Of a stretch of 20,000 nucleotides of DNA, positions 8,640 to 19,670 are shown one piece after another. A program made the translations under genes and the position numbers. Numbering within the stretch: position 1 is the first letter of the stretch; each line of letters starts with the position of its first letter. The notes beneath the pieces are model-generated. The model did not search any database, was not told the origin of the DNA, and saw only the letters and a program-made list of their open reading frames with translations. Location: the IMG/VR virus record IMGVR_UViG_2788500061_000001. The stretch is one strand, 5' to 3'. Origin of the DNA: an uncultured virus (IMG/VR IMGVR_UViG_2788500061_000001) (lineage: Duplodnaviria; Heunggongvirae; Uroviricota; Caudoviricetes).

Positions 8640-8701
8640 ACAATACCCCACATCCGTTTAGCCTTGCACCACCCTGAGGCGATCCGATCCCGAGAAACGG
8701 A

Positions 8702-8730
8702 TTGACATTTTCCGCCCTGGACAATATAAT
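8702..8730 (+). promoter_or_regulatory. Perfect consensus sigma70 promoter, antisense to the DUF3800 gene
   Basis: TTGACA (8702-8707), 17-bp spacer, TATAAT (8725-8730); no + strand ORF follows in the ORF track. Confidence 0.85.
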
Positions 8731-8736
8731 AGTGGT

Positions 8737-8782
8737 GAACCACTGAAAGCGCGAATGCGCTGTAGGTGGTGTTTCTTTATTT
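8737..8782 (+). ncRNA. Candidate DUF3800-associated small RNA: hairpin with GAA/GUA E-loop followed by a U-rich tail
   Basis: ACCACU 8739-44 pairs with GGUGGU 8765-70; internal loop GAA/GUA; AGCGC 8748-52 pairs with GCGCU 8757-61; loop GAAU; tail GUUUCUUUAUUU. Confidence 0.7.
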
Positions 8783-9562
8783 GGGGTAGACTACAATTCC
8801 AAACCGATCCGTTTTCGATGCCTTTAGGTTCAATACCGGCTCGAGCCTCCTCAACCACCGATCCAATCGTGCAGAGTTGACCAAAGGAGGGATTCTTCCA
8901 GCCAAATTACCAACTCCCAATTGCAAAAGCTTATGCATATAAACAATGTAGGCCGCGCAATCGCACGCTTGTAGAAAGTAGCTTTCCCCGGAGTCCTTCG
9001 GCAGGGGATCTTCGAGGAGCCTTGTAATCTTTCTGTTGACTGCTCCACCGAAATGCGACGGCACGAAATTTACTCTCTGAATCCGGCGGCTCGTTGACCT
9101 CATTTTTCCGACTCGACCTTCATCGGTTATGACCAAGAACTTCGCCGTTGGGTCCCTATTGCTGAGGTCATTTTCCATCCTCTGAATTGAATAGCTGAGT
9201 GCGCTGTCTAAGACACCATAATCGCCCCTCTGGATAGCGTGCTTGTTTATCACCACGTTCACTATCCGTACGTCCAATCGGGATATTTCATTAACAAAAG
9301 CTTCAATAATGGCGACGCGCTGGCGGCCCGATAGACTCAGGCTCCTGTAATCCCCCTTATTAAGGAGAAGCTCTTTCGTGTGAATCTCCCATTTCAAGGG
9401 AAACTTGTATTTTTTCGTCAGCCTTTGCCGGAAACTGCGCAGTCGCTCATATTCTTGCTGCCACATGGCCATATGCACCATGATTCCGGATAGGACGAAC
9501 AATGGAGATGAAAATTGCGGATAGCCATCGTCACCCGACTCATCGTAGTATACAAGATACAT
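8777..9562 (-). CDS. DUF3800 domain protein
   Basis: N-terminal YYDESG, central DEG and C-terminal DS..SYFLQACD..AY (QxxD) are the DUF3800 signature motifs. Confidence 0.9.
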   Translation of the reverse strand: MYLVYYDESGDDGYPQFSSPLFVLSGIMVHMAMWQQEYERLRSFRQRLTKKYKFPLKWEIHTKELLLNKGDYRSLSLSGRQRVAIIEAFVNEISRLDVRIVNVVINKHAIQRGDYGVLDSALSYSIQRMENDLSNRDPTAKFLVITDEGRVGKMRSTSRRIQRVNFVPSHFGGAVNRKITRLLEDPLPKDSGESYFLQACDCAAYIVYMHKLLQLGVGNLAGRIPPLVNSARLDRWLRRLEPVLNLKASKTDRFGIVVYPK

Positions 9563-9643: not shown

Positions 9644-10417
9644 TTAGCTGCTTCGCAGTTTACGAATGATTCGATCCAACTCTTCCACAGCTACCTGGCG
9701 ATCCGCCTTTGAAAGCTTTTCCAGCTCTTTCTCGAACTTGGACAATGTACTGAATGCGCTCTGACTCTTTTTCCGGTCCTGGGCCAGAACCTTCTTTGCC
9801 GCCTGGATATCCTTCCGCTCCACCCTGCCCTTTGCCAGTTTTGCTGCTTCATCGTAGAGGTTCTTATAGCGCTGAAGCATCCTGGGCTGAATCCCGGTCT
9901 TTTCTACGAGTTCATCGAGGTGATAGTTCTGACCCCGCTTTCGGCTGAAGTAATCGGGGTATGTGTCGGCCAGCAGGAGCACTTTGCCTTCCACATCATT
10001 CTTCTTTGCGGTGATGTTGTCGCCACCCAGGGCCAGCAGCTCTTCCTCCTTTGAGAGCTTTCTGGTAACGTAACGGACCGGGACTTTTTCATCTCCGCGC
10101 TCTATAGCGATTTCTTTCCGAACGTGGCCACCGAGAATCTTGCCCCCGGCCTGCCAGTTATTTGGATCGTCTGGGAGAAAAATGATCGGCTCCAGGATCC
10201 CGGACAGATCGATGGAGGCCTTTACCTCGGCTTTTTTCTTGGGATCGTTGGAGAAGTACCGGTAGTTGTCTTCATGATCCCGGAGCAGATTAGGAGAGAG
10301 CTCCCGGACCGGAGACAGAAATTTCTCCTCGATAGAAAACGACATTGTGTCGTTTTCCTGGAGCCCCCGGCGCTTTAGTCCGCCCGAGATATTGCCTCTG
10401 AGAGTCTTCTTGCTCAC
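9644..10417 (-). CDS. parB: ParB/Srx-domain partition protein
   Basis: SIDLSGILEPII...ILGGHVRKEIA...EKVPV is a ParB N-terminal motif; GTGA overlap with the parA stop. Confidence 0.85.
   Translation of the reverse strand: MSKKTLRGNISGGLKRRGLQENDTMSFSIEEKFLSPVRELSPNLLRDHEDNYRYFSNDPKKKAEVKASIDLSGILEPIIFLPDDPNNWQAGGKILGGHVRKEIAIERGDEKVPVRYVTRKLSKEEELLALGGDNITAKKNDVEGKVLLLADTYPDYFSRKRGQNYHLDELVEKTGIQPRMLQRYKNLYDEAAKLAKGRVERKDIQAAKKVLAQDRKKSQSAFSTLSKFEKELEKLSKADRQVAVEELDRIIRKLRSS
10335..10357. repeat. 23-bp palindrome, copy 1 (candidate parS) inside parB
   Basis: GAAAACGACA-TTG-TGTCGTTTTC; identical copy at 11032-11054. Confidence 0.75.
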
Positions 10418-11133
10418 GACAACTCCTTACTCAGCCTGTGAAACTGCTCTTCCGAATCGGATCCAGAGGGCAGGGGACGGCCCCGACCCAGGGCTGTTTT
10501 CACCACCCCTTTACGGAGAATCGATGCCCTTGAGAACTCCACTTCCCCGTCCATATCCTGGCGCAGTTTTTCATCCTCAGACCCTGAGACGATAGAAGGC
10601 ACCACAAGCAGCCTCTGGGATCCCCCGCTCTTCCGGGCTTTCGCCACCTCATCAATAAGCATCCCAACTCCCTGGACCGCCCATCGATCATAGGTCATTG
10701 GAGAGAGGACAATATCTGCCATGTTGATTGCCTGGCGGAATTCATAGGATAGCCCTGGAGGAGAATCCACAATCGCATAATCGTATTCCAGGCACCGCAC
10801 TTCTTTAGCAATCCGCAGCATTGCTCCCGGGTCCCCTGCCATTTCAATCCCGGCCCGATGCAGATGCAGGGTAGATGGGATACAGTCGATCCCGAAACCT
10901 GTCTCCCAGATGAGCTCGCGTGGGTCCGCAGCCTCCGTCAATAGCTGCAGAGCTCCCCGCCGGTCGAGCTGGTCAATATCCGTATCCCGCAGAAGGAAAT
11001 CGGTGGCGCTGGCCTGGGGATCCAGATCCAGGAAAACGACATTGTGTCGTTTTCTCAATTCGAGTGCCAGGTGGATACTGATGGCCGTCTTTCCCACGCC
11101 GCCTTTCAGGGATGACAGAATAATGATTTTCAC
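10414..11133 (-). CDS. parA: ParA family ATPase
   Basis: Deviant Walker A KGGVGKT, DLDPQASAT, YDYAIVDSPPGL. Confidence 0.95.
   Translation of the reverse strand: MKIIILSSLKGGVGKTAISIHLALELRKRHNVVFLDLDPQASATDFLLRDTDIDQLDRRGALQLLTEAADPRELIWETGFGIDCIPSTLHLHRAGIEMAGDPGAMLRIAKEVRCLEYDYAIVDSPPGLSYEFRQAINMADIVLSPMTYDRWAVQGVGMLIDEVAKARKSGGSQRLLVVPSIVSGSEDEKLRQDMDGEVEFSRASILRKGVVKTALGRGRPLPSGSDSEEQFHRLSKELS
11032..11054. repeat. 23-bp palindrome, copy 2 (candidate parS) inside parA
   Basis: Identical to 10335-10357 but read in a different codon frame. Confidence 0.75.
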
Positions 11134-11299
11134 AGGCGGAACGTCCTCGACGCAAACTCACCGGTCAATTCATTCTACACGGAAAGATGGATAGCGAAAG
11201 AAAAAGAGAGGTTACTCAGCAACCTCGACGAATTGCCAGACCATACGCTTATCATGGCTCACCAATGGCTCTTACCTGACCACTGGACCGGGCATAACT

Positions 11300-11377
11300 A
11301 ACTGCCTGGAGCCAGGCACCCATGAATTGCCTTCGAGGTCCTCTGACTTCGACTACCTGGGACCAGGCAGTTTTTTT
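11300..11377 (+). repeat. Two related palindromic boxes, or one long stem-loop ending in T7
   Basis: ACTGCCTGG-AG-CCAGGCA (11301-18) and ACTACCTGG-GA-CCAGGCA (11352-69); outer inverted repeat AACTGCCTGG 11300-09 / CCAGGCAGTT 11363-72; T7 at 11371-77. Confidence 0.55.
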
Positions 11378-11410
11378 CTTGACCGCCATGTACTTAGCCA
11401 GTACACGTTT

Positions 11411-11512
11411 ACCCAGAGCAACGCTAACCTGTGTTGCCCGGGTTACCAGGCGGGGCAGGGGGGTCAGAGCCCCTCTCCGCATTCCCTTCCTCTCCCCAAT
11501 ACGCCCGCCCCG
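11411..11512 (+). ncRNA. Candidate structured antisense/regulatory RNA complementary to the rep leader and ribosome-binding site
   Basis: Stems ACCC/GGGT, GCAAC/GTTGC, CGGGGC/GCCCCG, AGGGG/CCCCT. Its loops and pyrimidine tract are complementary to 11578-86, 11598-605 and 11656-74. Confidence 0.55.
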
Positions 11513-11532
11513 ATTTTATGTCGCATTTAAAC

Positions 11533-11560
11533 TTGACGGACTATTATGTCTCATTAGGGT
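11533..11560 (+). promoter_or_regulatory. Putative rep promoter overlapped by a 12-bp direct repeat
   Basis: TTGACG-N16-TAGGGT; TTATGTCGCATT 11516-27 and TTATGTCTCATT 11544-55 flank the -35 box. Confidence 0.5.
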
Positions 11561-11670
11561 GCGTACTGGCTACACCTCTCTGACCCGCTTTGCGGATGGT
11601 TTAGCCACCCGGGCACGAAGCCCTCAACATTGATTATCCGGACCCTGCGATAACAGGGGAGGGGGAAGGT

Positions 11671-12306
11671 ATGCTTGCACGACAGAAGATAGTCGGGCCG
11701 GGGCAGCTTGTGCCCGCAGAGCCTGGCCAAAAGCCACAAAAGAAACCGCGAGGGAAGAAAGGCCCCCGAATGAGCCTGCTTCGCCGAATTGAAAGACTTA
11801 GCCATCATAACGTTCAGCGATTCTCTGGATGGTGTTTTGCGGGAAACGATACCCTGGCAGCGGACTATGACGTAGAACCCAGGACTATTCGCCGCTGGTT
11901 CCGCCAACTCGAAAATGAGAAGCTCATTGAGACAAAAATCGTTGGCAACATCCGCCTGAGCCGGGCGACAAAGCGTGGCCTCGGAGCCCTGGCAGACGAG
12001 GGAGAGGCGGACAAATTGACCCCGGACGCCCCCAAGAAGTCCGCTCAGTTGTCCGGAGAGACGGACATTGAGTCCGTGTCCGGCGGACAGGCAGGCCCTG
12101 GAGGCGGACATTCGGTCCCCGTACATAGTACCGATCTCTGTACCGAGTACGTACTGGCAACGCTCCAGAAAAAGCTCAGCCCCAGCTCCTATCGGAAGGC
12201 TTCCGAGGCCTATGTCGCCGCCTCTGATGGAAAAGTGATCTTTCTGCATCTCCCAAATTACCTTGAAGAGATCCTCCGGTCATTTTTCGATGCTGAATTT
12301 ATTTAG
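11671..12306 (+). CDS. HTH replication initiator (HTH_36 / phage Rep-like)
   Basis: GWCFAGNDTLAADYDVEPRTIRRWFRQLENEKLI winged-HTH motif; strong G-rich SD; divergent from parAB; internal iterons. Confidence 0.75.
   Translation: MLARQKIVGPGQLVPAEPGQKPQKKPRGKKGPRMSLLRRIERLSHHNVQRFSGWCFAGNDTLAADYDVEPRTIRRWFRQLENEKLIETKIVGNIRLSRATKRGLGALADEGEADKLTPDAPKKSAQLSGETDIESVSGGQAGPGGGHSVPVHSTDLCTEYVLATLQKKLSPSSYRKASEAYVAASDGKVIFLHLPNYLEEILRSFFDAEFI
12004..12154. other. Putative replication origin inside rep (iterons plus GTAC cluster)
   Basis: CGGACA-N4-G(A/T/G)CC at 12008, 12062, 12084, 12105; inverted half-site TGTCCG at 12050; five GTAC in 12121-12154. Confidence 0.65.
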
Positions 12307-12321
12307 GGCGGATGCAGGCGA

Positions 12322-13068
12322 CTATCTTCCGACGAATGCACCAAGCCCAGCAGATACCAAGGTGAAGAGGCTAAACCCGCCGATGAAAGCAATTACGGAC
12401 GGTTGGCTATCCACGTGAACATCATGGGCCTCCTGAAGCATGTCTTCGATGGCGCCCACGGCCAGTAGGCCGGATACGACTGCCAGGCCGCCCGCCTTTA
12501 TTTGCCCCGGGGCACCGCGAAGAAGAAAGTATGCAGCCACAGCGGCCCCAACAACGTAGACGAAGAATAAAACGGAAAGAGATATTCGGCGAGCCCTGGC
12601 AATACCTTTACTGCGGAAGTTTGCAGCCGCTGCGTACCCTTCCGGCACGTCTGCGAGCACCTGGCCGGCAGATAGAACTAGGGCCCACTTCAAAGAAACG
12701 GAGGCACCCGTGCCCGTCATCAGCCCGTCGCTCATAAGGTCGATGGCTACGGCGGCATAAATCATCCACATGCGTCTGTTCCCTGCACCATCACTTGTGC
12801 CTTGTAGGCGTTTGACTATGGAATCCAGTGCTATGTAGCTTAAGCCACCTATGGCAAAGGCAAGCGCAACCCACCAGCCCGCGATTTGCTCAAGAGCACC
12901 TGGTATGAGTTCCACGGCTACGATTGCGATAACGATACCCGACGCCGCGTGAAGAGCCCAATTCAGAGACCGAGCTGAGGGAGCCCTTGCTTCTGCGGCG
13001 AGGGCTCCGAGAAAGTTGCCGGCACCGGGCAACAAGGATAGCAGGATTACAGTAAAGATATCTTCCAT
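12322..13068 (-). CDS. ZIP (ZupT/GufA) family metal transporter
   Basis: Multi-TM protein with ALHAASGIVIAIVAVELIP, DLMSDGL, QVLADVPEG, EDMLQEAH; likely start MEDIF at 13068. Confidence 0.85.
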   Translation of the reverse strand: MEDIFTVILLSLLPGAGNFLGALAAEARAPSARSLNWALHAASGIVIAIVAVELIPGALEQIAGWWVALAFAIGGLSYIALDSIVKRLQGTSDGAGNRRMWMIYAAVAIDLMSDGLMTGTGASVSLKWALVLSAGQVLADVPEGYAAAANFRSKGIARARRISLSVLFFVYVVGAAVAAYFLLRGAPGQIKAGGLAVVSGLLAVGAIEDMLQEAHDVHVDSQPSVIAFIGGFSLFTLVSAGLGAFVGR

Positions 13069-13370
13069 GGATACTCTTGGTAAATACAAATGAGTCTGAA
13101 TAGTGGTGACAACCATTATAAAGATAGAAGCGACCGAGTCATATCTATAAAAAGTCGAATCTCCTAAATACTAAAATCTATCTTCAAAATGCGCCCGTCT
13201 GCAATCCGAAAATTACCGTTTTCGCCTCGAAACGAAGGCGATATGTTAGTTCTGCCTGTCGGGTGCAGGCGCTCGGCACGGTTCTAAGCCTTAATTCGAT
13301 CCGGGGACTCCACATTCAACGGTTTACAAAATAATGTTGACAGCCCCTGGCAAAACGTTGCGATTGATAT

Positions 13371-13787
13371 GTGCGCGGACTAACCCACAGGACAGCAGTG
13401 CTTTCATTGCTTGTATTTCTGGGAATAGTAATTGGGCCTCCGATCTTCTGTCATCAAGGATGGAGCGGCTCCGAACTGCAGGCAACAACTTTGGCTGCTG
13501 GCTCTTTTGCCACCGAGGCATCCAGATCTGAAACACAGCAGCACTGGCATACAGCATTCTCGCACTGTCGGTCCGAATGCGGGCCTCCTGAATCAGCATT
13601 GAGCCATTTCGCAGAAGGGGGCTCCCTGTTTTTCGCGCCTTTTCCGGACTTTTTGTCCTGCCCGGCGGTGCCAGAAATCTTGCTTCCTTCGAGTCGATAC
13701 TACCTGGTGTCGCATTCGGATGATCGCCAGGTGGCCATCATCCGTGATATAGCTCTTCCTTTGTCCAACGCCCCCCCCGCCTCCTGA
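13371..13787 (+). CDS. Hypothetical CzcI/DUF2946-like leader protein upstream of czcC
   Basis: N-terminal hydrophobic segment, HCH-like FCH and HWH/HCxxxC motifs, C-terminal NAPP; ends 28 nt before czcC. Confidence 0.5.
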   Translation: MRGLTHRTAVLSLLVFLGIVIGPPIFCHQGWSGSELQATTLAAGSFATEASRSETQQHWHTAFSHCRSECGPPESALSHFAEGGSLFFAPFPDFLSCPAVPEILLPSSRYYLVSHSDDRQVAIIRDIALPLSNAPPAS

Positions 13788-13815
13788 AGATAGTCAATCT
13801 TTAAAGGAGGAAACA

Positions 13816-15123
13816 ATGAAACAGTACTACTTGTATGCTGGCTGGCTGGCCTTGCTGCTGGTTCCAGCCATGCATTCCATCGATGCAGAGGAGCCCGAAA
13901 CCGCTTCTGTGGAGGCTACAAACTCCCTGGAGCTACAGGAATGCAGCTTGAACGGCCCTGCCGATGTTCTACGATGCGTAAAGAAGAATGACCCTGACGT
14001 GCGAAAAGCACGGTCCCAATTGCAACAAAGAATCTCGGCCCTAGAAACTGCGGAGCAACGGCCCAACCCTGAGCTGGAAGCCGAGGCAGACCTCAGTTCG
14101 CCCAGGTCCTACAGCCTGGAATACAGACACATAATAGAGCTGGGCAATCGGCGAGAACTCCGCACGAATGTGGCTCAGGGCCGACAGCGAGAAGCAGCGC
14201 TTCAAGTGGAACTATCGCTGCAAAATGCAGTGATGCGAACAGCCATCGCTCTATACCGCCTCAAACAACTGCGGGAGGAAGAGGTCTTTCTTCGTGAAGC
14301 CCGAAATGCCTTCAATACAGCCATCGGGCGGCTTTACCGATTACCTTCCAGAAGCGCAAATCAGCAGGCAAGTTTGTTTAGTTACGTTCTGGCAAGAAAT
14401 AGCATTGAACAGCAGCGGGTTCGAATGGATACGGAGCGAGAGTCCATTCGCGCAGATCTAGAACGATGGACCGGTCAGCGCATTTCGGATGCTGCACTCA
14501 CGGCCATTGCAGCCGAGCATCCAAAAAACTGGCCGGAAATGCCCGATGAATATTCAAAATCGGTGGAACTGGCTCTGGCTAAAGAAGGCGTCGCACGTTC
14601 TGCTGCCAATCTCAGGCTCCAGGAAAGCAGGAAGTGGCCGGACCTGGGTATTGGCCCACGCTTTTCCTACAGCCCAAATGAATCGGGCCCTCTGGATTTT
14701 GGTTCATCTGAAGGACGATGGAATGCGGGTGTTTCTTTTTCTGTCACGCTTCCACTCTACAATCAATATGAAGGACAGGAGAAAGAAGCTCGAGCCCGGA
14801 AACAATCCGAAGAGATTCAGCGACAGACAACCGAGCTTTCCCTGGAAAGCGAATACCGTTCCATGGCACGATCCTATGCTGTTCTCGTCAATGGCTTCAA
14901 TCGTACTGCATCGCCGGAATCAATGGCCGGACAGAGGTATGCCATACTCGGGTATTTGAGTCGAGGGCTGGTGAGTCCGCCCATGCTTATTGAGTACCAT
15001 CGAACGTATGCGGACTATCTGCATCAATATCATACAACCCAGCTTCAGGCATTGCGCTTGCTCTGGAGAGGGTACGCTCTATCAGGGAGGATTTTAGACG
15101 ATGACGTTATCCATAGCATTTGA
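13816..15123 (+). CDS. czcC: TolC/CzcC family outer membrane efflux protein
   Basis: Signal peptide, RPNPEL, ELGNRRELR, WPDLGIG, FSVTLPLYNQYEG; SD AAGGAGG. Confidence 0.85.
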   Translation: MKQYYLYAGWLALLLVPAMHSIDAEEPETASVEATNSLELQECSLNGPADVLRCVKKNDPDVRKARSQLQQRISALETAEQRPNPELEAEADLSSPRSYSLEYRHIIELGNRRELRTNVAQGRQREAALQVELSLQNAVMRTAIALYRLKQLREEEVFLREARNAFNTAIGRLYRLPSRSANQQASLFSYVLARNSIEQQRVRMDTERESIRADLERWTGQRISDAALTAIAAEHPKNWPEMPDEYSKSVELALAKEGVARSAANLRLQESRKWPDLGIGPRFSYSPNESGPLDFGSSEGRWNAGVSFSVTLPLYNQYEGQEKEARARKQSEEIQRQTTELSLESEYRSMARSYAVLVNGFNRTASPESMAGQRYAILGYLSRGLVSPPMLIEYHRTYADYLHQYHTTQLQALRLLWRGYALSGRILDDDVIHSI

Positions 15124-15154
15124 CTTATCCGGGGGAAGAAGGGCCCTACCGGGC

Positions 15155-15754
15155 ATGGAAAGCTCAAAAATAGGATTCTGCCTGGCGGGCTGCATGCTCA
15201 CCGTTGTCTCCTTTTGTGGCGAGTCGCCGGAACACGCTAATGCGAATTCTCAGTCCGGTCATTCGGAGAGCCATGCCGAGGAAGGCACTCACGATCATAG
15301 AGCGCAGGAGGAATCCGGCTCGCAACATTCAGAGGAAAGTAGTTCAAACCATTCACACAATGAAACGGATTCCTCCGGTTCAAACCAGAATGCAGGGCCG
15401 CAGTACGCCGTCTTGAAGGCGAATCAGGAAAAAGGTATCCAGCTATCAGAGCAATCCCTGAAGATTTGTGGGATTCGTTTTGCAGCCCCCGGGAAGTATA
15501 AGGGTAATTTCCCTGCTTCGAGCCTGGTTCATGTGTCTGGGCTGCAGCTGGTATATGTAAGAAAGGGAGATTGGATCTTTCCGGTCAATCTGGGTAACTC
15601 CACTCATTCGCCGAGCGCAGAGGAGATCCCTTCGTTGCGACAAGCGGCAGCTGTGGACTGGGTTCAGTCCGAACTTGCTGTAGAAAATGTGGATATAATC
15701 CATCTGGCCCTTCTGGAAGCTTTTGGCGCTTCGGGATCCGGTCATGGACACTGA
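15155..15754 (+). CDS. His-rich minimal CzcB-like periplasmic (lipo)protein; alternative start at 15101
   Basis: Lies between czcC and czcA; possible lipobox VSFC; His/Ser/Glu-rich linker; GIQLSEQSLKICGI and PASSLVHVSG..VYVRKG adaptor-like motifs. Confidence 0.65.
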   Translation: MESSKIGFCLAGCMLTVVSFCGESPEHANANSQSGHSESHAEEGTHDHRAQEESGSQHSEESSSNHSHNETDSSGSNQNAGPQYAVLKANQEKGIQLSEQSLKICGIRFAAPGKYKGNFPASSLVHVSGLQLVYVRKGDWIFPVNLGNSTHSPSAEEIPSLRQAAAVDWVQSELAVENVDIIHLALLEAFGASGSGHGH

Positions 15755-15792
15755 TCCTATCCATCCAGACGGACGATTCAGCAGGAAATTCT

Positions 15793-18700
15793 ATGTTTGA
15801 TAAAATACTAAGGTACTCCGTTTACAACCCCGGCGCTGCCTTCGGGCTGGCCCTATTGCTCCTTGGTGGCGCATTCTACTCTTATCAGGTTATTCCAATC
15901 GATGCTGTGCCTGATATCACCAATGTACAGGTGCAGGTGATGACTCGAGCCGAAAGCCTCGACGGGGAAACCATTGAAGCGAATATTACGTATCCAATTG
16001 AAAGCGCTATGGGCGCTGTGCCCAATGTACAGGAGATACGTTCGGTTACCCGCTTCGGGCTCTCTGTAGTCACGGTGATCTTCGAAGAAGGCACGGACAT
16101 CTATCTGGCAAGACAACTTGTGGGCGAGCAGCTGGCCACACTGGATCTACAGGATGCCCAGCCTCGCCTCGGGCCCATCGCTACCGGCCTGGGGGAAATC
16201 TATCATTACTCCATCGAAGTAAAGGAGCCCGCCACCGATCCGAAGAAGAGGCTGGAACAATTAATGCGACTGAGGACCATCCAGGAATGGGAGGTTAAAC
16301 GCAGATTGCTTGCGGTTCAGGGCGTGGCCGAGGTAAATACAATCGGAGGGTATGAAGAGATATACTTTGTACAACCGGATCCCGTGAAAATGTCTCGATA
16401 CGGGATTCACTTCGATGATCTGAAGCTTGCTCTGCAGCGCAGCAATCGCATCGCCGGAGGTGGATACATTCAGCAAACGGCGAACCAGCTCATTCTTCAG
16501 GGAGACGGACTCATCCGCAATCCAGAAGAAATCGAGTCTTTGCCGTTGAAGCAACTTCCGGATCTGACAACACTTCGCGTGGGCGACGTGGCCTCGGTGG
16601 ACAAAGATAAGGAAATCCGCACCGGAGCTGCCGTGGTTAACGGACAAGAGAGGGTGCTGGGGACGGTATTTATGCTTCTGGGAGAAAACAGCCGCACTGT
16701 CTCTTCCCGGGTAGACGAACGAGTCAACGAAATTCGTAAGACCCTTCCAGAGGACGTGGAGATCAAAACACTCTACAACCGATCCTATCTTGTGGATGGC
16801 ACCATTGAGACGGTGCAGGAGAACCTGGTCTTCGGCGCGCTGCTGGTGGTGGTGGTTCTGCTACTTCTTACCGGGAATTTTCGGGCTGCGATCATCGCTT
16901 CGGCCGTAATACCGCTGTCTATGGCGGCTACATTGATTTCTATGTATGTCACCGGCGTTTCAGCGAATCTCATGAGCCTGGGGGCCCTGGACTTCGGTAT
17001 TATAATCGACGGCGCAGTTATCGTAATCGATCAATGCGTGCACAGTGTGCAATCACGTGCCTCCACCGAAGGCAGGACTCTAAGTCGATCCGAAATCAAA
17101 TCTGCCGTTGCAGAGGCTTCTATCCAGATTCGCCGGGCTGCCGGATTCGGTCAGATTATAATCCTGGTTGTTTTTCTGCCTATTTTTGCGCTTACTGGTA
17201 TTGAAGGTAAAATGTTTCGCCCGATGGCCGCCGCGTTTTGCTTTGCTCTATTTGCAGCGTTCATTCTTGCTTTTACCGTGGTCCCTGCACTGGCCGGTAC
17301 TTTTTTGCGCGGGCATGCGCCCAGGGAAGGTATGTCCCTTTTTGGTTTTCTGGACCGGGGATACAGTTACCTGCTTTCGCGGGCTCTACAAAAAAGAACC
17401 CTGATCGTGGGGCTTTCCCTTTTGCTGCTCGTTTTAGGCGGATGGGTAGGCAAGAGCCTTGGAGGAGAGTTCATTCCTACACTGTACGAAAGGGCCATTG
17501 CCATGCAATTCGTCCGGCCTCCATCCATTTCGGTCGATTCCTCGGTAAAGCTGGAGCGTTTGTCCCATAAAGTCATACAATCCTTTCCGGAAGTAGATCA
17601 GGTATTTACTCGAATTGGAGCGGCCGAAATTGCCACCGACCCCATGGGGGTTAATATCGGGGATAGCTACATCATGTTAAAACCAAGGCAGAAGTGGCCG
17701 GAAGTAGACGGTGAAGTTCGTACCCCGAATCAGCTCAGGGATGCGTTAAGGTCTGCTGTGCAGAAGGCCGTTCCCGGCCAGAGAATCCTGATGAGTCAGC
17801 CTATTCAGCTACGATTCAATGAGCTTCTGGAAGGTTCTCGGTCCGATTTAACGCTCAAGATCTATGGAGACGATCTGGAGAAGCTGCAGCATCTAAGCGA
17901 AAAAGCTGCAGCCTTGCTGTCTTCGGTTCCCGGCTCCGGGAACCCTGAATCGGAGATTCGAGGACAGATACCCATCATAAAGGTCGAACCCCGAACCGAA
18001 GTACTGCAGCGACTGGGACTATCGCGCAAGGAAATACTGGACACGGTGCAGATGGGCCTGGGCGGCCATGATACCGGCTTTCTCTATCGAGGAGTGCGTC
18101 GATTCCCTATCCGAATTCGGCTGAAGGAGGAAGATCGCAGTCTGTCCGGGCTGTCCGAATTGCCGGTAGGAGTAACCGATAGCTCCACGGAGCCTCTGGA
18201 CAAGCTTGCCCGGATCTATGAGACGCGCACCTTCGAAATGATCAAACGGGATTCCATGCAACGACGGGGTGCCATTCTAATCAACCCCACCGGCGGAGAT
18301 ACGGCGGGCTTTGTGGAAGCCGCGAACCGGGCACTGAAAGATCTGGAATTGCCGCCAGGCTATTACACCGAATGGGGTGGCAGCTTCGAAAACCTGCAGA
18401 AGGCCAGGAGCCGGCTCCTGATCGTTGCTCCGCTGGCCTTTCTTATTGTTTCGTTGATGATCTATTCTGCATTTCGGAACTGGATTCGGACCCTCATGGT
18501 GCTGGCCGGAGTACCTTTCGCTCTGGTGGGCGGCGTACTGGCACTTGCCATTTCCGGCCAGTCCCTCAGCATTTCCGCTTCCGTGGGCTTTATTGCACTT
18601 TTCGGTATCTCCGTCTTGAACGGAGTCGTACTCATGAGTCGCTACCGGGATCTATCACAGGAAGGTATCGAAGGAGAGGAATTGGCCTTGCAGGGCGCGC

Positions 18701-18939
18701 GAAGCAGACTTAGAGCCGTGGCCATGACGGCACTAACAGATATTTTTGGCTTCATGCCCATGATGCTGGCCACAGGACTGGGCGCTGAAGTTCAGCGGCC
18801 TCTGGCCACCGTTGTAGTCGGAGGAGTGCTCACCTCTTCGTTTGTGATTCTATTTTTCTTTCCGGTCATTCACACATTCCTGGAGGGAGTCCTGAACCGC
18901 GGCGAAGCAGGCAAAATCCAGGGGGATGACTTTCAATGA
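15793..18939 (+). CDS. czcA: CusA/CzcA family heavy-metal RND transporter
   Basis: 1048 aa; IPIDAVPDITNVQVQV, ANLMSLGALDFGIIIDGAV, GIEGKMFRPMA, GAEVQRPLATVVVGG. Confidence 0.95.
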   Translation: MFDKILRYSVYNPGAAFGLALLLLGGAFYSYQVIPIDAVPDITNVQVQVMTRAESLDGETIEANITYPIESAMGAVPNVQEIRSVTRFGLSVVTVIFEEGTDIYLARQLVGEQLATLDLQDAQPRLGPIATGLGEIYHYSIEVKEPATDPKKRLEQLMRLRTIQEWEVKRRLLAVQGVAEVNTIGGYEEIYFVQPDPVKMSRYGIHFDDLKLALQRSNRIAGGGYIQQTANQLILQGDGLIRNPEEIESLPLKQLPDLTTLRVGDVASVDKDKEIRTGAAVVNGQERVLGTVFMLLGENSRTVSSRVDERVNEIRKTLPEDVEIKTLYNRSYLVDGTIETVQENLVFGALLVVVVLLLLTGNFRAAIIASAVIPLSMAATLISMYVTGVSANLMSLGALDFGIIIDGAVIVIDQCVHSVQSRASTEGRTLSRSEIKSAVAEASIQIRRAAGFGQIIILVVFLPIFALTGIEGKMFRPMAAAFCFALFAAFILAFTVVPALAGTFLRGHAPREGMSLFGFLDRGYSYLLSRALQKRTLIVGLSLLLLVLGGWVGKSLGGEFIPTLYERAIAMQFVRPPSISVDSSVKLERLSHKVIQSFPEVDQVFTRIGAAEIATDPMGVNIGDSYIMLKPRQKWPEVDGEVRTPNQLRDALRSAVQKAVPGQRILMSQPIQLRFNELLEGSRSDLTLKIYGDDLEKLQHLSEKAAALLSSVPGSGNPESEIRGQIPIIKVEPRTEVLQRLGLSRKEILDTVQMGLGGHDTGFLYRGVRRFPIRIRLKEEDRSLSGLSELPVGVTDSSTEPLDKLARIYETRTFEMIKRDSMQRRGAILINPTGGDTAGFVEAANRALKDLELPPGYYTEWGGSFENLQKARSRLLIVAPLAFLIVSLMIYSAFRNWIRTLMVLAGVPFALVGGVLALAISGQSLSISASVGFIALFGISVLNGVVLMSRYRDLSQEGIEGEELALQGARSRLRAVAMTALTDIFGFMPMMLATGLGAEVQRPLATVVVGGVLTSSFVILFFFPVIHTFLEGVLNRGEAGKIQGDDFQ

Positions 18940-19670
18940 AAAAGAATGTTCTCGTACTGGGCGGCTACGGCCTGGCTGGCCGTAGCATTGTGGAAAGCCT
19001 CCTGGATGCAGGGCCTGGGGTGGTGGCCGCCGGTAGAAACAGGAACAAACTCCTGGAACTGGAAAGAAGCCTGGGATCTACGCCTACTCCGGAGGCCCGG
19101 CCTACGTCGCTGAAAACCTGCGTGCTGGATGTTTCGGACAACTCTGAGGCGGGCATTACTGCTCTGAAGCAAGCTATGAACGAGGCAGATGCAGTCATAA
19201 ACTGCGTGGGACCGTTCATCCTCCATGGTAGCCGGATGGCACAAATAGCCATCGATGCGGGAGCCCATTACCTGGACATAGCTTCGGAGCAGGAGCATTT
19301 GCGGCGTATTGTTGATCTGGATGGACCGGCCCGTAAGGCCGGGTTGAGTGTTCTACCGGGGGCCGGCGCCTACCCTGGTTTGAGCGGCCTTCTCCTTGGC
19401 CGCCTGCTGGAGTGTTATCCCGAAACCGCTGAAGCTACAATCGAGTTGGCTATGTCCTCTAACCCCACCGGTCAGGGCGTGGCCCAGTTGTTGAGCGGGG
19501 CACTGGAAATGATTTTCCCCCTTAACGAGCCCGAAGTAAATTCGCAGAAAGCCATCTTTCCAGGCACAGTTGAGAATCGAGAATTTCCTGCCCCTTTGGT
19601 GTGCTTCCCGCTTTCCGGACCTTATTGTCAGTACCGGTGTATTCGTGATTGTAGTATTCGGTGCAATTAG
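18936..19670 (+). pseudogene. Saccharopine dehydrogenase-like NAD(P)-binding protein, probably 3'-truncated near 19595
   Basis: VLGGYGLAG, AGRN, VINCVGPF, GAHYLDI, GAYPGLS motifs; after REFPAP the frame degenerates into a Cys-rich tail. Confidence 0.65.

What the first reader, a model, noticed from the sequence alone, without database searches (positions are those of the whole stretch)
11395..11674. Same-strand structured RNA with multi-site complementarity to the rep leader, SD and start codon (C4/CI-like control of a phage-plasmid replicon)
Seen: five upstream segments are complementary to downstream ones. TAGCCAGTAC 11395-404 / 11563-72 (10 bp). GCTAACC 11423-29, a hairpin loop / GGTTTAGC 11598-605 (one bulge). 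TGCCCGGGT 11435-43 / 11607-15 (9 bp). GGGTCAGAG 11461-69, mostly a hairpin loop / 11578-86 (9 bp). GCAT-TC-CCTTCCTCTCCCC 11479-97 / GGGGAGGGGGAAGG-T-ATGC 11656-74, covering the SD and ATG of rep. The pairings are not nested, so one simple fold-back cannot explain them. The targets lie in their own hairpin (TGGCTA 11567-72 / TAGCCA 11602-07, inner CCGC-TTT-GCGG) just after a putative promoter. Partial target copies occur upstream (CTCTGAC 11341-47, TTAGCCA 11394-400). Known: P1 C4 and P4 CI RNAs are same-strand RNAs whose loops pair with flanking targets. Inference: an undescribed RNA switch sets Rep level, copy number or immunity.
Basis: partly seen in the sequence, partly recalled or inferred. 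Interest (0 to 1): 0.8.

Follow-up and report, generated by a model that had tools for sequence, protein, structure and literature searches.

The report
Inverted repeats upstream of rep-like gene
The short complementary blocks between the partition genes and a replication-like gene of a 75-kb circular phage-plasmid from a spirochete are really there, but nothing available shows that they act as a regulatory RNA, and a simpler reading as a two-way promoter region with mirrored ribosome-binding sites fits at least as well.

Summary
The sequence observation holds. Three perfect inverted pairs (10, 9 and 9 bp) and two imperfect ones sit at the stated coordinates. Shuffles never reproduce them, but about 25 loci in this 4.87-Mb genome score as high, and 16 of those lie inside ordinary coding sequence. 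The block over the rep ribosome-binding site is the one clearly non-random piece: its partner tract pairs with the rep start region better than with all but 2 of 7353 candidate start regions in the genome.

That same tract, read on the other strand, is the Shine-Dalgarno plus ATG of a 76-codon ORF. This ORF lies behind the only consensus promoter found in the region and points toward parA.

No Rfam family matches, C4 included. No plus-strand promoter precedes the proposed RNA, and a strong plus-strand terminator lies just upstream. Every DNA relative I could fetch is about 100% identical here, so covariation cannot be tested. Metatranscriptome contigs do not cover the interval.

My best reading (0.4) is a divergent parAB/rep control region with mirrored translation starts. 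A cis or trans anti-SD RNA remains possible (about 0.3 combined). The phage-plasmid context is supported: a circular contig with phage genes, parAB and no integrase.

The parts
9644..10417 (-). ParB-like gene (257 aa)
   Evidence: Weak PHROG ParB-like hits, E 2e-7; NCBIfam plasmid partitioning protein, E 0.004
10414..11133 (-). parA (239 aa, small Walker-type partition ATPase)
   Evidence: Pfam AAA_31 2.5e-24 and CbiA; PHROG ParA-like 3.8e-41; NCBIfam ParA_partition
11187..11301 (+). Remnant of a small plus-strand ORF. It is intact (70 aa) only in relative L009/G003, which has 98 extra bases at about 11205.
   Evidence: The intact ORF has a codon score of 0.131, which is coding-like.
11300..11378 (+). 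Terminator-like element: AACTGCCTGG...CCAGGCAGTT stem made of two related hairpin units, followed by T7
   Evidence: I2, D1, I24; sequence
11252..11482 (-). ORF76, a doubtful small gene or leader ORF. Its SD plus ATG is the reverse complement of block E. Blocks A-D lie inside it.
   Evidence: No family, fold or distant homologue found.
11208..11226 (-). Minus-strand terminator-like hairpin with a T-rich tail, between the ORF76 stop and parA
11390..11404 (+). Hairpin H1 (GTACT/AGTAC, loop TAGCC). It contains block A (11395-11404).
11411..11443 (+). Hairpin H2. It contains block B (11423-29, mostly loop) and block C (11435-43, mostly stem).
11454..11478 (+). Hairpin H3 (loop CAGA). It contains block D (11461-69).
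11470..11497 (+). 28-nt pyrimidine tract (26 of 28 bases). It includes block E (11479-97) and the mirror repeat CCCCTCTCC / CCTCTCCCC. On the minus strand it reads as a purine-rich SD plus ATG.
   Evidence: D4, I3, I20; P unpaired 0.86
11516..11555 (.). Two 12-nt direct repeats TTATGTC(G/T)CATT (11516-27 and 11544-55) in the AT-rich core. A possible operator.
   Evidence: D2. Not enriched elsewhere in the window.
11533..11561 (+). Candidate rep promoter TTGACG-17-TAGGGT, read by eye. It fails the scan's -10 rule.
   Evidence: Sequence; not reported
11543..11572 (-). The only sigma-70-like promoter match in 11000-12400 (TAGCCA-18-CATAAT, 9/12). It points leftward, and its -35 lies inside block A'.
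   Evidence: 1 found; shuffles give a mean of 0.5
11563..11615 (+). Downstream blocks A' (11563-72), D' (11578-86), B' (11598-605) and C' (11607-15), around hairpin 11567-11607
11656..11674 (+). Block E': SD (GGAGG) and ATG of the rep-like gene
11671..12306 (+). rep-like winged-helix protein (211 aa)

Best explanation
The interval is the divergent control region between the partition operon and the rep-like gene of a roughly 74.9-kb circular phage-plasmid of Leptonemataceae.

Back-to-back promoters sit in the AT-rich core (11513-11572). One fires rightward into a leader of about 100 nt and then rep. The other fires leftward, with a start near 11536, across the 'upstream block' as the mRNA of a small ORF and/or the long leader of parAB.

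On this reading, block E is not an anti-SD. It is the ribosome-binding site and ATG of the leftward ORF, a near mirror copy of the rep ribosome-binding site. The three perfect 9-10-bp pairs are by-products: sequence history or chance, possibly short shared motifs. They are not contacts of a C4/CI-like RNA. The two 12-nt repeats flanking the rep -35 are the likeliest operator for autoregulation by the winged-helix protein.

Shown: the sequence features, the circular replicon and the gene families. Inferred: both promoters, the direction of transcription, use of ORF76, and the operator role.
For: - The only consensus promoter in 11000-12400 is on the minus strand at 11572-11543.
- The reverse complement of E (GGGGAGAGGAAGGGAATGC) matches E' (GGGGAGGGGGAAGGTATGC) at 15 of 19 positions, and it sits exactly at the start of ORF76.
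- A minus-strand terminator-like hairpin follows the ORF76 stop.
- Gene callers report ORF76 on several contigs. One variant is 82% identical and keeps the frame.
- Its first 44 codons have a coding-like codon score of 0.134, against 0.122 for rep and 0.142 for parA.
- The plus-strand ORF across the interval scores as non-coding (-0.073) and has no database hit at all.
- No plus-strand promoter passes the scan upstream of the block, and a hairpin with a T7 run lies at 11300-11378.
- The upstream block folds at least as well on the minus strand (z -2.73) as on the plus strand (z -2.31).
- Clusters of short inverted pairs this strong occur at about 25 places in the genome, 16 of them inside ordinary coding sequence.
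- repA divergent from parABS is a known layout in extrachromosomal prophages (PMC7157519, section 7 read).
Against: - ORF76 has no homologue beyond its own cluster among 1.84 billion representatives.
- It has no Pfam, PHROG or NCBIfam hit.
- Its model is a low-confidence single helix, pLDDT 64.7.
- Its last 32 codons score as non-coding (-0.075) and overlap the plus-strand terminator.
- A 47-aa form exists.
- One promoter hit is not significant, since shuffles give 0.5.
- This reading leaves three perfect 9-10-bp pairs unexplained, although 0 of 2000 shuffles produce them. Among the top-scoring genomic loci, non-coding ones are over-represented (9 of 25), which suggests that some such clusters are functional.
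- The full 321-nt plus strand folds with z -3.47, against -1.66 for the minus strand.
Confidence: 0.4

Rival explanations
1. Cis-acting long leader. Some rep transcripts start upstream of 11390, by read-through of the 11300-11378 terminator or from an unrecognised promoter. In these, the pyrimidine tract 11479-97 pairs with the SD and AUG 175 nt downstream and closes a large domain, so they are translationally silent. Transcripts from the proximal promoter are active. The other complementary blocks offer alternative pairings.
For: - In the MFE and centroid folds of 11380-11700, E/E' is the closing helix, with z -3.47 and 0 of 100 shuffles as stable.
- The tract pairs with the rep start region at -30.4 kcal/mol. 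That ranks 3 of 7353 genome-wide and 1 of 130 on the replicon.
- Two of the four non-Watson-Crick positions in E/E' are G-U on the plus strand (my reading, I3).
Against: - There is no plus-strand promoter upstream, and a strong terminator lies just before the block.
- The leader from the proximal start shows no unusual stability on its own (z -0.04).
- The MFE of the two strands is nearly equal, -124.7 against -125.6.
- No covariation data exist.
Confidence: 0.17
2. A trans-acting, same-strand small RNA of about 125-140 nt (11385-11520) uses its loops and single-stranded pyrimidine tail to contact several sites in the rep leader and mask the SD and AUG. This would give dose-dependent negative control of Rep, functionally like P1 C4 or P4 CI.
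For: - Three perfect blocks and two imperfect ones are present.
- Block E is predicted to be single-stranded in the isolated RNA (P unpaired 0.86), and B is mostly in a loop (0.71).
- Partial upstream copies of two targets exist, CCGGGCA 11288-94 and CTCTGAC 11341-47, reminiscent of a1b1 / seqA.
- A GC stem followed by ATTTTAT lies at 11449-11519.
- A non-coding RNA immediately upstream of parA and in the opposite direction is documented in other phage-plasmids (PMC7157519, passages read).
- The one known substitution in B (T11425A, inferred from P0007 S20C) still allows 7 bp with B' after a register shift.
Against: - No Rfam hit to C4 or any other family.
- There is no usable promoter, and the terminator is weak, with only four U.
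- Block C is buried in a stem (P unpaired 0.13), and A and D are half paired.
- The cofold gain of -18.7 kcal/mol is matched by 10.5% of shuffles.
- A' lies at or before the likely rep start, so it may not be in the mRNA.
- The pairs cross each other, so they cannot all form as full helices.
Confidence: 0.13
3. DNA-level or replication-origin features. The inverted repeats, the polypurine/polypyrimidine mirror repeat and the AT-rich core belong to the plasmid origin or to operators bound by Rep or ParB. Alternatively, the transcribed region is an RNA-based origin, as in non-RepA mycobacterial prophages.
For: - Origins usually adjoin rep.
- C/C' and D/D' share a symmetry centre at about 11524, inside the AT-rich core that carries two 12-nt repeats.
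- CCCCTCTCC / CCTCTCCCC is a mirror repeat.
- There is a precedent for a parA-proximal replication RNA (PMC7157519, abstract and passages read).
Against: - The three pairs have three unrelated sequences, each present only two or three times, which does not suit one DNA-binding protein.
- None recurs significantly elsewhere on the 75-kb replicon.
- There is no iteron array, only two 12-mers.
- DnaA-box matches are at the chance level: 46 found against 42.5 expected.
- The most AT-rich stretch nearby is elsewhere, at 13030-13200.
Confidence: 0.15

Closest known systems
P1/P7 C4 antisense RNA (Rfam RF01695) and P4 CI RNA. Their layout is recalled from memory; only a table entry for C4 and c4-a1b1 was seen, in PMC2864571.
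   Same: They occur in temperate phages and phage-plasmids. The regulator and its targets lie on the same strand. Short complementary segments sit both upstream and downstream of the regulator, and one covers a ribosome-binding site.
   Different: - No covariance-model match.
- The downstream gene is a rep-like winged-helix protein, not icd/ant or the P4 replication operon.
- Five blocks rather than two.
- No promoter or processing signal is recognisable.
- Expression is unshown.
Plasmid countertranscript copy-number control (for example pMV158 RNAII on repB; PMC4485353, search listing and abstract only)
   Same: The proposed logic is the same: a plasmid-encoded RNA masks the SD/AUG of the initiator gene to set copy number.
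   Different: Countertranscripts are made from the opposite strand of the rep leader and are fully complementary to it. Here the candidate lies 175 nt upstream on the same strand, and the only promoter-like site on the opposite strand fires away from the rep leader.
Extrachromosomal mycobacterial prophages with parABS plus a divergent repA or a parA-proximal non-coding RNA origin (Wetzel et al. 2020, PMC7157519; abstract, section 7 and passages read)
   Same: - A phage-plasmid without integrase.
- The rep gene is transcribed opposite to parAB.
- In the non-RepA phages, a non-coding RNA lies immediately upstream of parA in the reverse direction, and predicted ORFs on the other strand overlap it.
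   Different: The host phylum is different and there is no sequence similarity. Here a rep-like gene is present, and no RNA-seq is available to show a non-coding transcript.
Leptospira LE1-type and lcp/pGui replicons (rep plus parAB modules; PMC4338851, term search only; PMC2229662, abstract only, 74-kb third replicon of L. biflexa)
   Same: Same bacterial order. A circular replicon of about 74-75 kb with phage genes and a rep-parAB maintenance module.
   Different: The Rep family here was found only in one Leptonemataceae genus: 5 of 156 genomes of the order, and no match in the phage or plasmid collections. PMC4338851 has no occurrence of iteron, inverted repeat, origin of replication, intergenic or antisense.

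Membership tests
C4 antisense RNA (RF01695) / c4-a1b1 | Match to the Rfam covariance model | tested here: not met
   No hit at gathering score in the window. At E<=10 over 11100-11750 the only hit is sul1, at 13.8 bits against a gathering score of 36.2.
C4 antisense RNA (RF01695) / c4-a1b1 | Loop sequences complementary to both an upstream and a downstream target on the same strand, the downstream one covering an RBS (feature recalled) | tested here: inconclusive
   Complementary blocks exist upstream (7-13 nt) and downstream (9-10 nt), and E covers the RBS. However, only B and E are predicted to be mostly unpaired.
C4 antisense RNA (RF01695) / c4-a1b1 | Sits in an immunity operon ahead of icd/ant-type genes (feature recalled) | tested here: not met
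   The downstream gene is a 211-aa winged-helix, rep-like protein.
C4 antisense RNA (RF01695) / c4-a1b1 | A discrete, processed small RNA is made | not testable with these tools
   Only contigs from one metatranscriptome sample were available, and they do not cover 11134-11822.
Antisense countertranscript (ctRNA) control of rep | The RNA is transcribed from the strand opposite the rep leader and overlaps it | tested here: not met
   The only minus-strand promoter-like site (11572-11543) would start at about 11536, outside the rep leader. There are no Rfam ctRNA hits.
Iteron-type origin | An array of three or more direct repeats of about 17-22 bp next to rep | tested here: not met
   Only two 12-nt repeats 28 nt apart. 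Two further 2-mismatch matches in the window are at the chance level.
Phage-plasmid | Circular extrachromosomal replicon with phage structural genes, partition and replication genes, and no integrase | tested here: met
   - The first 99 nt of contig C1 equal its last 99 nt.
- Portal, tail fibre, baseplate and amidase genes are present.
- ParA and a ParB-like gene are present.
- No integrase family appears among 60 ORFs at E<=1e-5, nor among 25 window ORFs at E<=0.01.
- Contigs of about 76-82 kb carry it in other assemblies.
Extrachromosomal state is inferred, not shown.
Plasmid/phage replication initiator (Pfam HTH_36; PHROG replication initiation proteins) | Score above the curated family threshold | tested here: inconclusive
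   - HTH_36 scores 21.2 bits, below the cut-off of 25.
- PHROG E-values are 4.2e-5 to 9.1e-4.
- No NCBIfam hit.
- No solved-structure sequence hit.
- AF2 pLDDT is 58.6, and the fold hits are generic MarR/ArsR/PadR winged helices and the AspA centromere binder.
RNA-based prophage origin (non-RepA parABS mycobacteriophages) | A non-coding RNA expressed beside parA in the opposite direction and required for replication | not testable with these tools
   There is no strand-specific RNA data and no genetics. The layout is compatible (PMC7157519).

The most novel reading that the evidence does not exclude
A plasmid-encoded RNA made from the same strand as rep (11385-11520), or the same segment as part of a long leader, uses a single-stranded pyrimidine tract plus several loop contacts to mask the SD and AUG of the replication gene of a spirochete phage-plasmid. 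That would be a copy-number or immunity switch that works like P1 C4 / P4 CI but is unrelated to them and is applied to a replication initiator instead of an antirepressor.
Probability: 0.13. Interest if true: 0.7.

Novelty: new member of a known kind. Interest (0 to 1): 0.33.

Why it matters
If the RNA reading were right, it would be the first same-strand, multi-contact RNA controlling a plasmid-type initiator, and the first regulatory RNA described for a Leptonemataceae phage-plasmid. It would also offer a handle for vector design in spirochetes.

On the more likely reading, the value is descriptive. The work maps the maintenance module (parAB, rep-like gene, divergent promoters, mirrored ribosome-binding sites) of a 75-kb circular phage-plasmid found nearly identical in several Leptonemataceae assemblies. 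It also shows that clusters of short perfect inverted pairs of this strength arise about 25 times in a 4.9-Mb genome, mostly inside genes.

Tried and rejected
- **Covariation.** None of these searches gave a usable relative:
  - DNA search of 61 relatives.
  - Rep profile in 156 genomes of the order and 401 of the phylum.
  - Genome contigs, metagenome contigs and viral-contig scans with Rep and with ParA.
  - Phage and plasmid collections.

  Every locus found is 98.3-100% identical overall. Inside 11134-11700 the only differences are T11377C (L010), T11597A (L009) and the 98-nt indel. Rep relatives at 59-63% identity (P0003-P0005) and the 91% / 82% pair (P0002 / P0007) exist only as proteins from assemblies whose DNA I could not reach.
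- **Expression.** RNA contigs of one metatranscriptome sample (X1 = X3) lie on 9824-9988, 11823-12358, 12777-12999/13042 and about 13705-13947. None lies on 11134-11822. This is no evidence of absence.
- **Global duplex energy.** Not different from shuffles, so I dropped it as a statistic.
- **Plus-strand ORF 11322-11633 as a gene.** Codon score -0.073, and not a single database hit. Rejected.
- **ORF76 function.** No hits in Pfam, PHROG, NCBIfam, 1.84 billion representatives or the ESM Atlas (best 0.81, noise level). The AF2 model is a low-confidence single helix.
- **Repeated binding-site family.** A blastn-short search of the intergenic region against the whole replicon found nothing better than E = 0.5.
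- **DnaA boxes.** At the chance level.
- **Earlier notes of this scan.** Nothing by place or by sequence.
- **Literature.** 'Leptonema' plus 'phage-plasmid' returned 0 papers. I found no paper describing this element or a same-strand RNA controlling rep, but only searches were run, so this is not a claim that none is in print.
Full report
**Setting**

The window is the last 20 kb of contig C1 (75,035 bp) of a 4.87-Mb, 20-contig genome. The first 99 nt of C1 equal its last 99 nt, so the contig closes into a circle of about 74.9 kb.

Record titles of near-identical loci name Leptonemataceae, Leptospiraceae and Spirochaetaceae MAGs.

The circle carries these genes:
- Phage genes: portal, tail fibres, baseplate J, tail-tube initiator, amidase and SLT.
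- Two DNA methylases.
- PIN, Zeta_toxin and SocA-domain ORFs.
- A ParA and a ParB-like gene.
- Two HTH_36-type proteins.
- A ZIP-like membrane protein and an RND efflux cluster.

No integrase family was reported among 60 ORFs outside the window at E<=1e-5, nor among 25 window ORFs at E<=0.01. 'Phage-plasmid' is therefore a fair description. The extrachromosomal state is inferred from circular assembly and gene content.

Its assignment as an initiator is weak:
- HTH_36 scores 21.2 bits against a cut-off of 25.
- PHROG replication-initiator families hit at E 4e-5 to 9e-4.
- There is no NCBIfam hit and no solved-structure sequence hit.
- The AF2 model has pLDDT 58.6, and its best fold matches are generic MarR/ArsR/PadR winged helices and a centromere binder.

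Its position, divergent from parAB, is the best argument. It matches the layout of RepA-type extrachromosomal mycobacterial prophages (PMC7157519, section 7 read).

**The observation**

Three are perfect (10, 9 and 9 bp). B pairs with one bulge. E/E' has 15 Watson-Crick pairs and 2 G-U pairs out of 19.

The upstream partial copies exist, and there is one more: CCGGGCA 11288-94, complementary to C.

The pairs are indeed not nested. C/C' and D/D' nest with each other around a centre near 11524, but A, B and E cross them.

In predicted folds, the upstream block forms three hairpins:
- H1, 11390-404.
- H2, 11411-43.
- H3, 11454-78.

Only B and E are mostly unpaired (0.71 and 0.86). C is buried (0.13), and A and D are about half paired. 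The 'loop' part of the description is therefore only partly right.

**Is it more than chance?**

For the two blocks as chosen, yes:
- 0 of 2000 shuffles give three perfect runs of 9 or more (mean 0.096).
- The summed top-5 local complementarity (41) exceeds all 1000 shuffles and all 4000 random genomic loci of the same geometry (max 39 in both).

But the blocks were picked after looking, so I also scanned the whole genome:
- 26 loci have at least three separate long-range perfect pairs of 9 bp or more within 300 nt.
- On a grid of 121,513 positions, 9 score 41 or more.
- 25 merged loci score 40 or more. This locus scores 40 on the grid and 41 at the exact geometry.
- Of those 25, 16 lie wholly inside open frames of 200 codons or more.

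That gives about 0.05-0.1 such cluster per 20-kb window. Non-coding or partly non-coding loci are over-represented among the 25 (9 of them), so some such clusters probably are real structures. The statistic alone cannot carry the claim.

A global duplex energy is unremarkable (z -0.36). Cofolding uses only E/E', with a gain of -18.7 kcal/mol that 10.5% of 200 shuffles match.

**The one robust piece**

The pyrimidine tract 11466-11500 pairs with the rep start region at -30.4 kcal/mol. That is rank 3 of 7353 candidate start regions genome-wide (mean -11.2, sd 4.6) and rank 1 of 130 on the replicon. So E/E' is not a chance match.

**Two readings of E**

(i) *An anti-SD on a plus-strand RNA.* In the fold of 11380-11700, E/E' is the closing helix, with z -3.47 and 0 of 100 shuffles as stable.

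(ii) *A mirrored ribosome-binding site.* The reverse complement of E is GGGGAGAGGAAGGGAATGC, 15 of 19 identical to the rep SD-ATG region GGGGAGGGGGAAGGTATGC. It is exactly the start of a 76-codon minus-strand ORF, 11482-11252.

Evidence around reading (ii):
- The promoter scan finds a single site in 11000-12400. It is on the minus strand (TAGCCA-18-CATAAT, 11572-11543) and correctly placed to drive this ORF and perhaps parAB.
- A minus-strand terminator-like hairpin (11226-11208) follows the ORF's stop.
- Shuffles give 0.5 promoter hits, so this is a lead and not proof.

Evidence for and against ORF76 as a gene:
- It is called on several contigs. P0007 is 82% identical, 77 aa and in frame. Residues 1-44 are identical except S20C, while residues 45-77 differ by at least about 16 nucleotides (my count from the alignment). 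P0008 is a 47-aa form.
- Codon scores are ambiguous: 0.046 overall, 0.134 for the first 44 codons and -0.075 for the rest. True-gene chunks score 0.177 +/- 0.080 and false ORFs -0.074 +/- 0.122.
- It has no distant homologue, family or confident fold.

**Against a plus-strand RNA from the upstream block**

- No TANNNT hexamer lies at a suitable distance from the TTGACC at 11379-84 (sequence), and the scan reports none.
- A 10-bp GC-rich stem followed by T7 lies immediately upstream at 11300-11378. It fits the end of a small plus-strand ORF that is intact (70 aa, codon score 0.131) only in relative L009/G003 and is truncated by a 98-nt deletion elsewhere.
- The upstream block folds as well on the minus strand (z -2.73) as on the plus strand (-2.31). 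The MFEs of the whole 321 nt are nearly equal on the two strands.
- Block A' overlaps the -35 of the leftward promoter and the probable rep transcription start, so it may not be in the rep mRNA at all.

**Comparative evidence**

There is none. The interval is identical in four other genomes of the genus, one IMG/VR contig and two metagenome contigs, apart from the following:
- T11377C in L010.
- T11597A in L009.
- The 98-nt indel.

L009's lower Rep identity (91%) comes from a mosaic patch at 12005-12228. The perfect conservation of the intergenic region therefore reflects recent common ancestry, not selection.

Two substitutions can be inferred from protein variants:
- T11425A falls in the H2 loop and in block B, which can still pair with B' after a register shift.
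- T11476C weakens the base of H3.

Neither is informative without the partner sequence.

The Rep family was found in 5 of 156 genomes of the order, all in one genus. A 401-genome sample of the phylum gave only weak HTH matches.

**Known families**

No Rfam family matches at gathering score, and at E<=10 only a sub-threshold sul1 hit appears. The element is therefore not a member of C4 / c4-a1b1 or of any curated ctRNA family, whatever it may work like.

There is no iteron array and no excess of DnaA boxes.

**Verdict**

The sequence observation is confirmed. The RNA-switch interpretation cannot be decided with the data reachable here, and on balance it is less likely than an ordinary divergent control region in which E and E' are the two ribosome-binding sites.

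| Reading | Probability |
|---|---|
| Divergent control region, no RNA switch | 0.40 |
| Cis anti-SD leader | 0.17 |
| Trans same-strand RNA | 0.13 |
| DNA-level or origin features, including an RNA-based origin | 0.15 |
| Other | remainder |

The decisive data are strand-specific transcript mapping and the intergenic sequences of the diverged relatives that are already known as proteins.

Noticed in passing
G000:C1 whole contig; window 12322-19670: The circular phage-plasmid of about 74.9 kb carries cargo that is unusual for a phage: a ZIP/ZupT-like membrane protein, an outer-membrane factor, an AcrB-type RND pump (1048 aa) and a saccharopine-dehydrogenase-like oxidoreductase. The same arrangement is present at 99.5-100% identity on contigs of 76-82 kb in other assemblies.
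   Followed up: partly
window about 11205; L009 2438-2527: Relative L009/G003 has 98 extra bases that restore a 70-aa plus-strand ORF (MDSERK...WTGHN) ending at the TAA at 11299-11301, just before the terminator hairpin. All other copies carry the deletion. The ORF has no Pfam, PHROG or NCBIfam hit.
   Followed up: partly
window 12005-12228 (rep-like gene): In L009 about 45 of its 69 differences from the window fall in this 225-nt patch, while the rest of the locus is at least 99.8% identical. This looks like a recombination mosaic in the linker and C-terminal half of the protein. P0002 is a further variant.
   Followed up: partly
window 11470-11497: A 28-nt tract with 26 pyrimidines contains the mirror repeat CCCCTCTCC ... 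CCTCTCCCC, an H-DNA-type motif.
   Followed up: no
window 9824-9988 and 9927-9949: The only metatranscriptome contig on the par genes covers 165 nt inside the ParB-like gene. Within it, TTCTGACCCCGCTTTCGGCTG resembles the leader hairpin segment CTCTGACCCGCTTTGCGGATG (11578-11598). blastn-short did not report the match as significant.
   Followed up: no
G000:C1:16011-16826 (L025): A second HTH_36 protein (271 aa, 27.2 bits) lies next to a PD-(D/E)XK nuclease and two DNA methylases. It may be the lytic replication module, separate from the parAB-linked gene.
   Followed up: no
G000:C1:45078-46496, 22962-23495, 8651-9148 (L027, L026, L025): ORFs with a Zeta_toxin domain (472 aa), a PIN domain and a SocA/Panacea domain, which suggest addiction or defence modules on the replicon.
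   Followed up: no
window 13030-13200: This is the most AT-rich stretch near the maintenance module (GC 0.32-0.38). It lies upstream of the membrane-protein gene and is an alternative place to look for an unwinding element.
   Followed up: no
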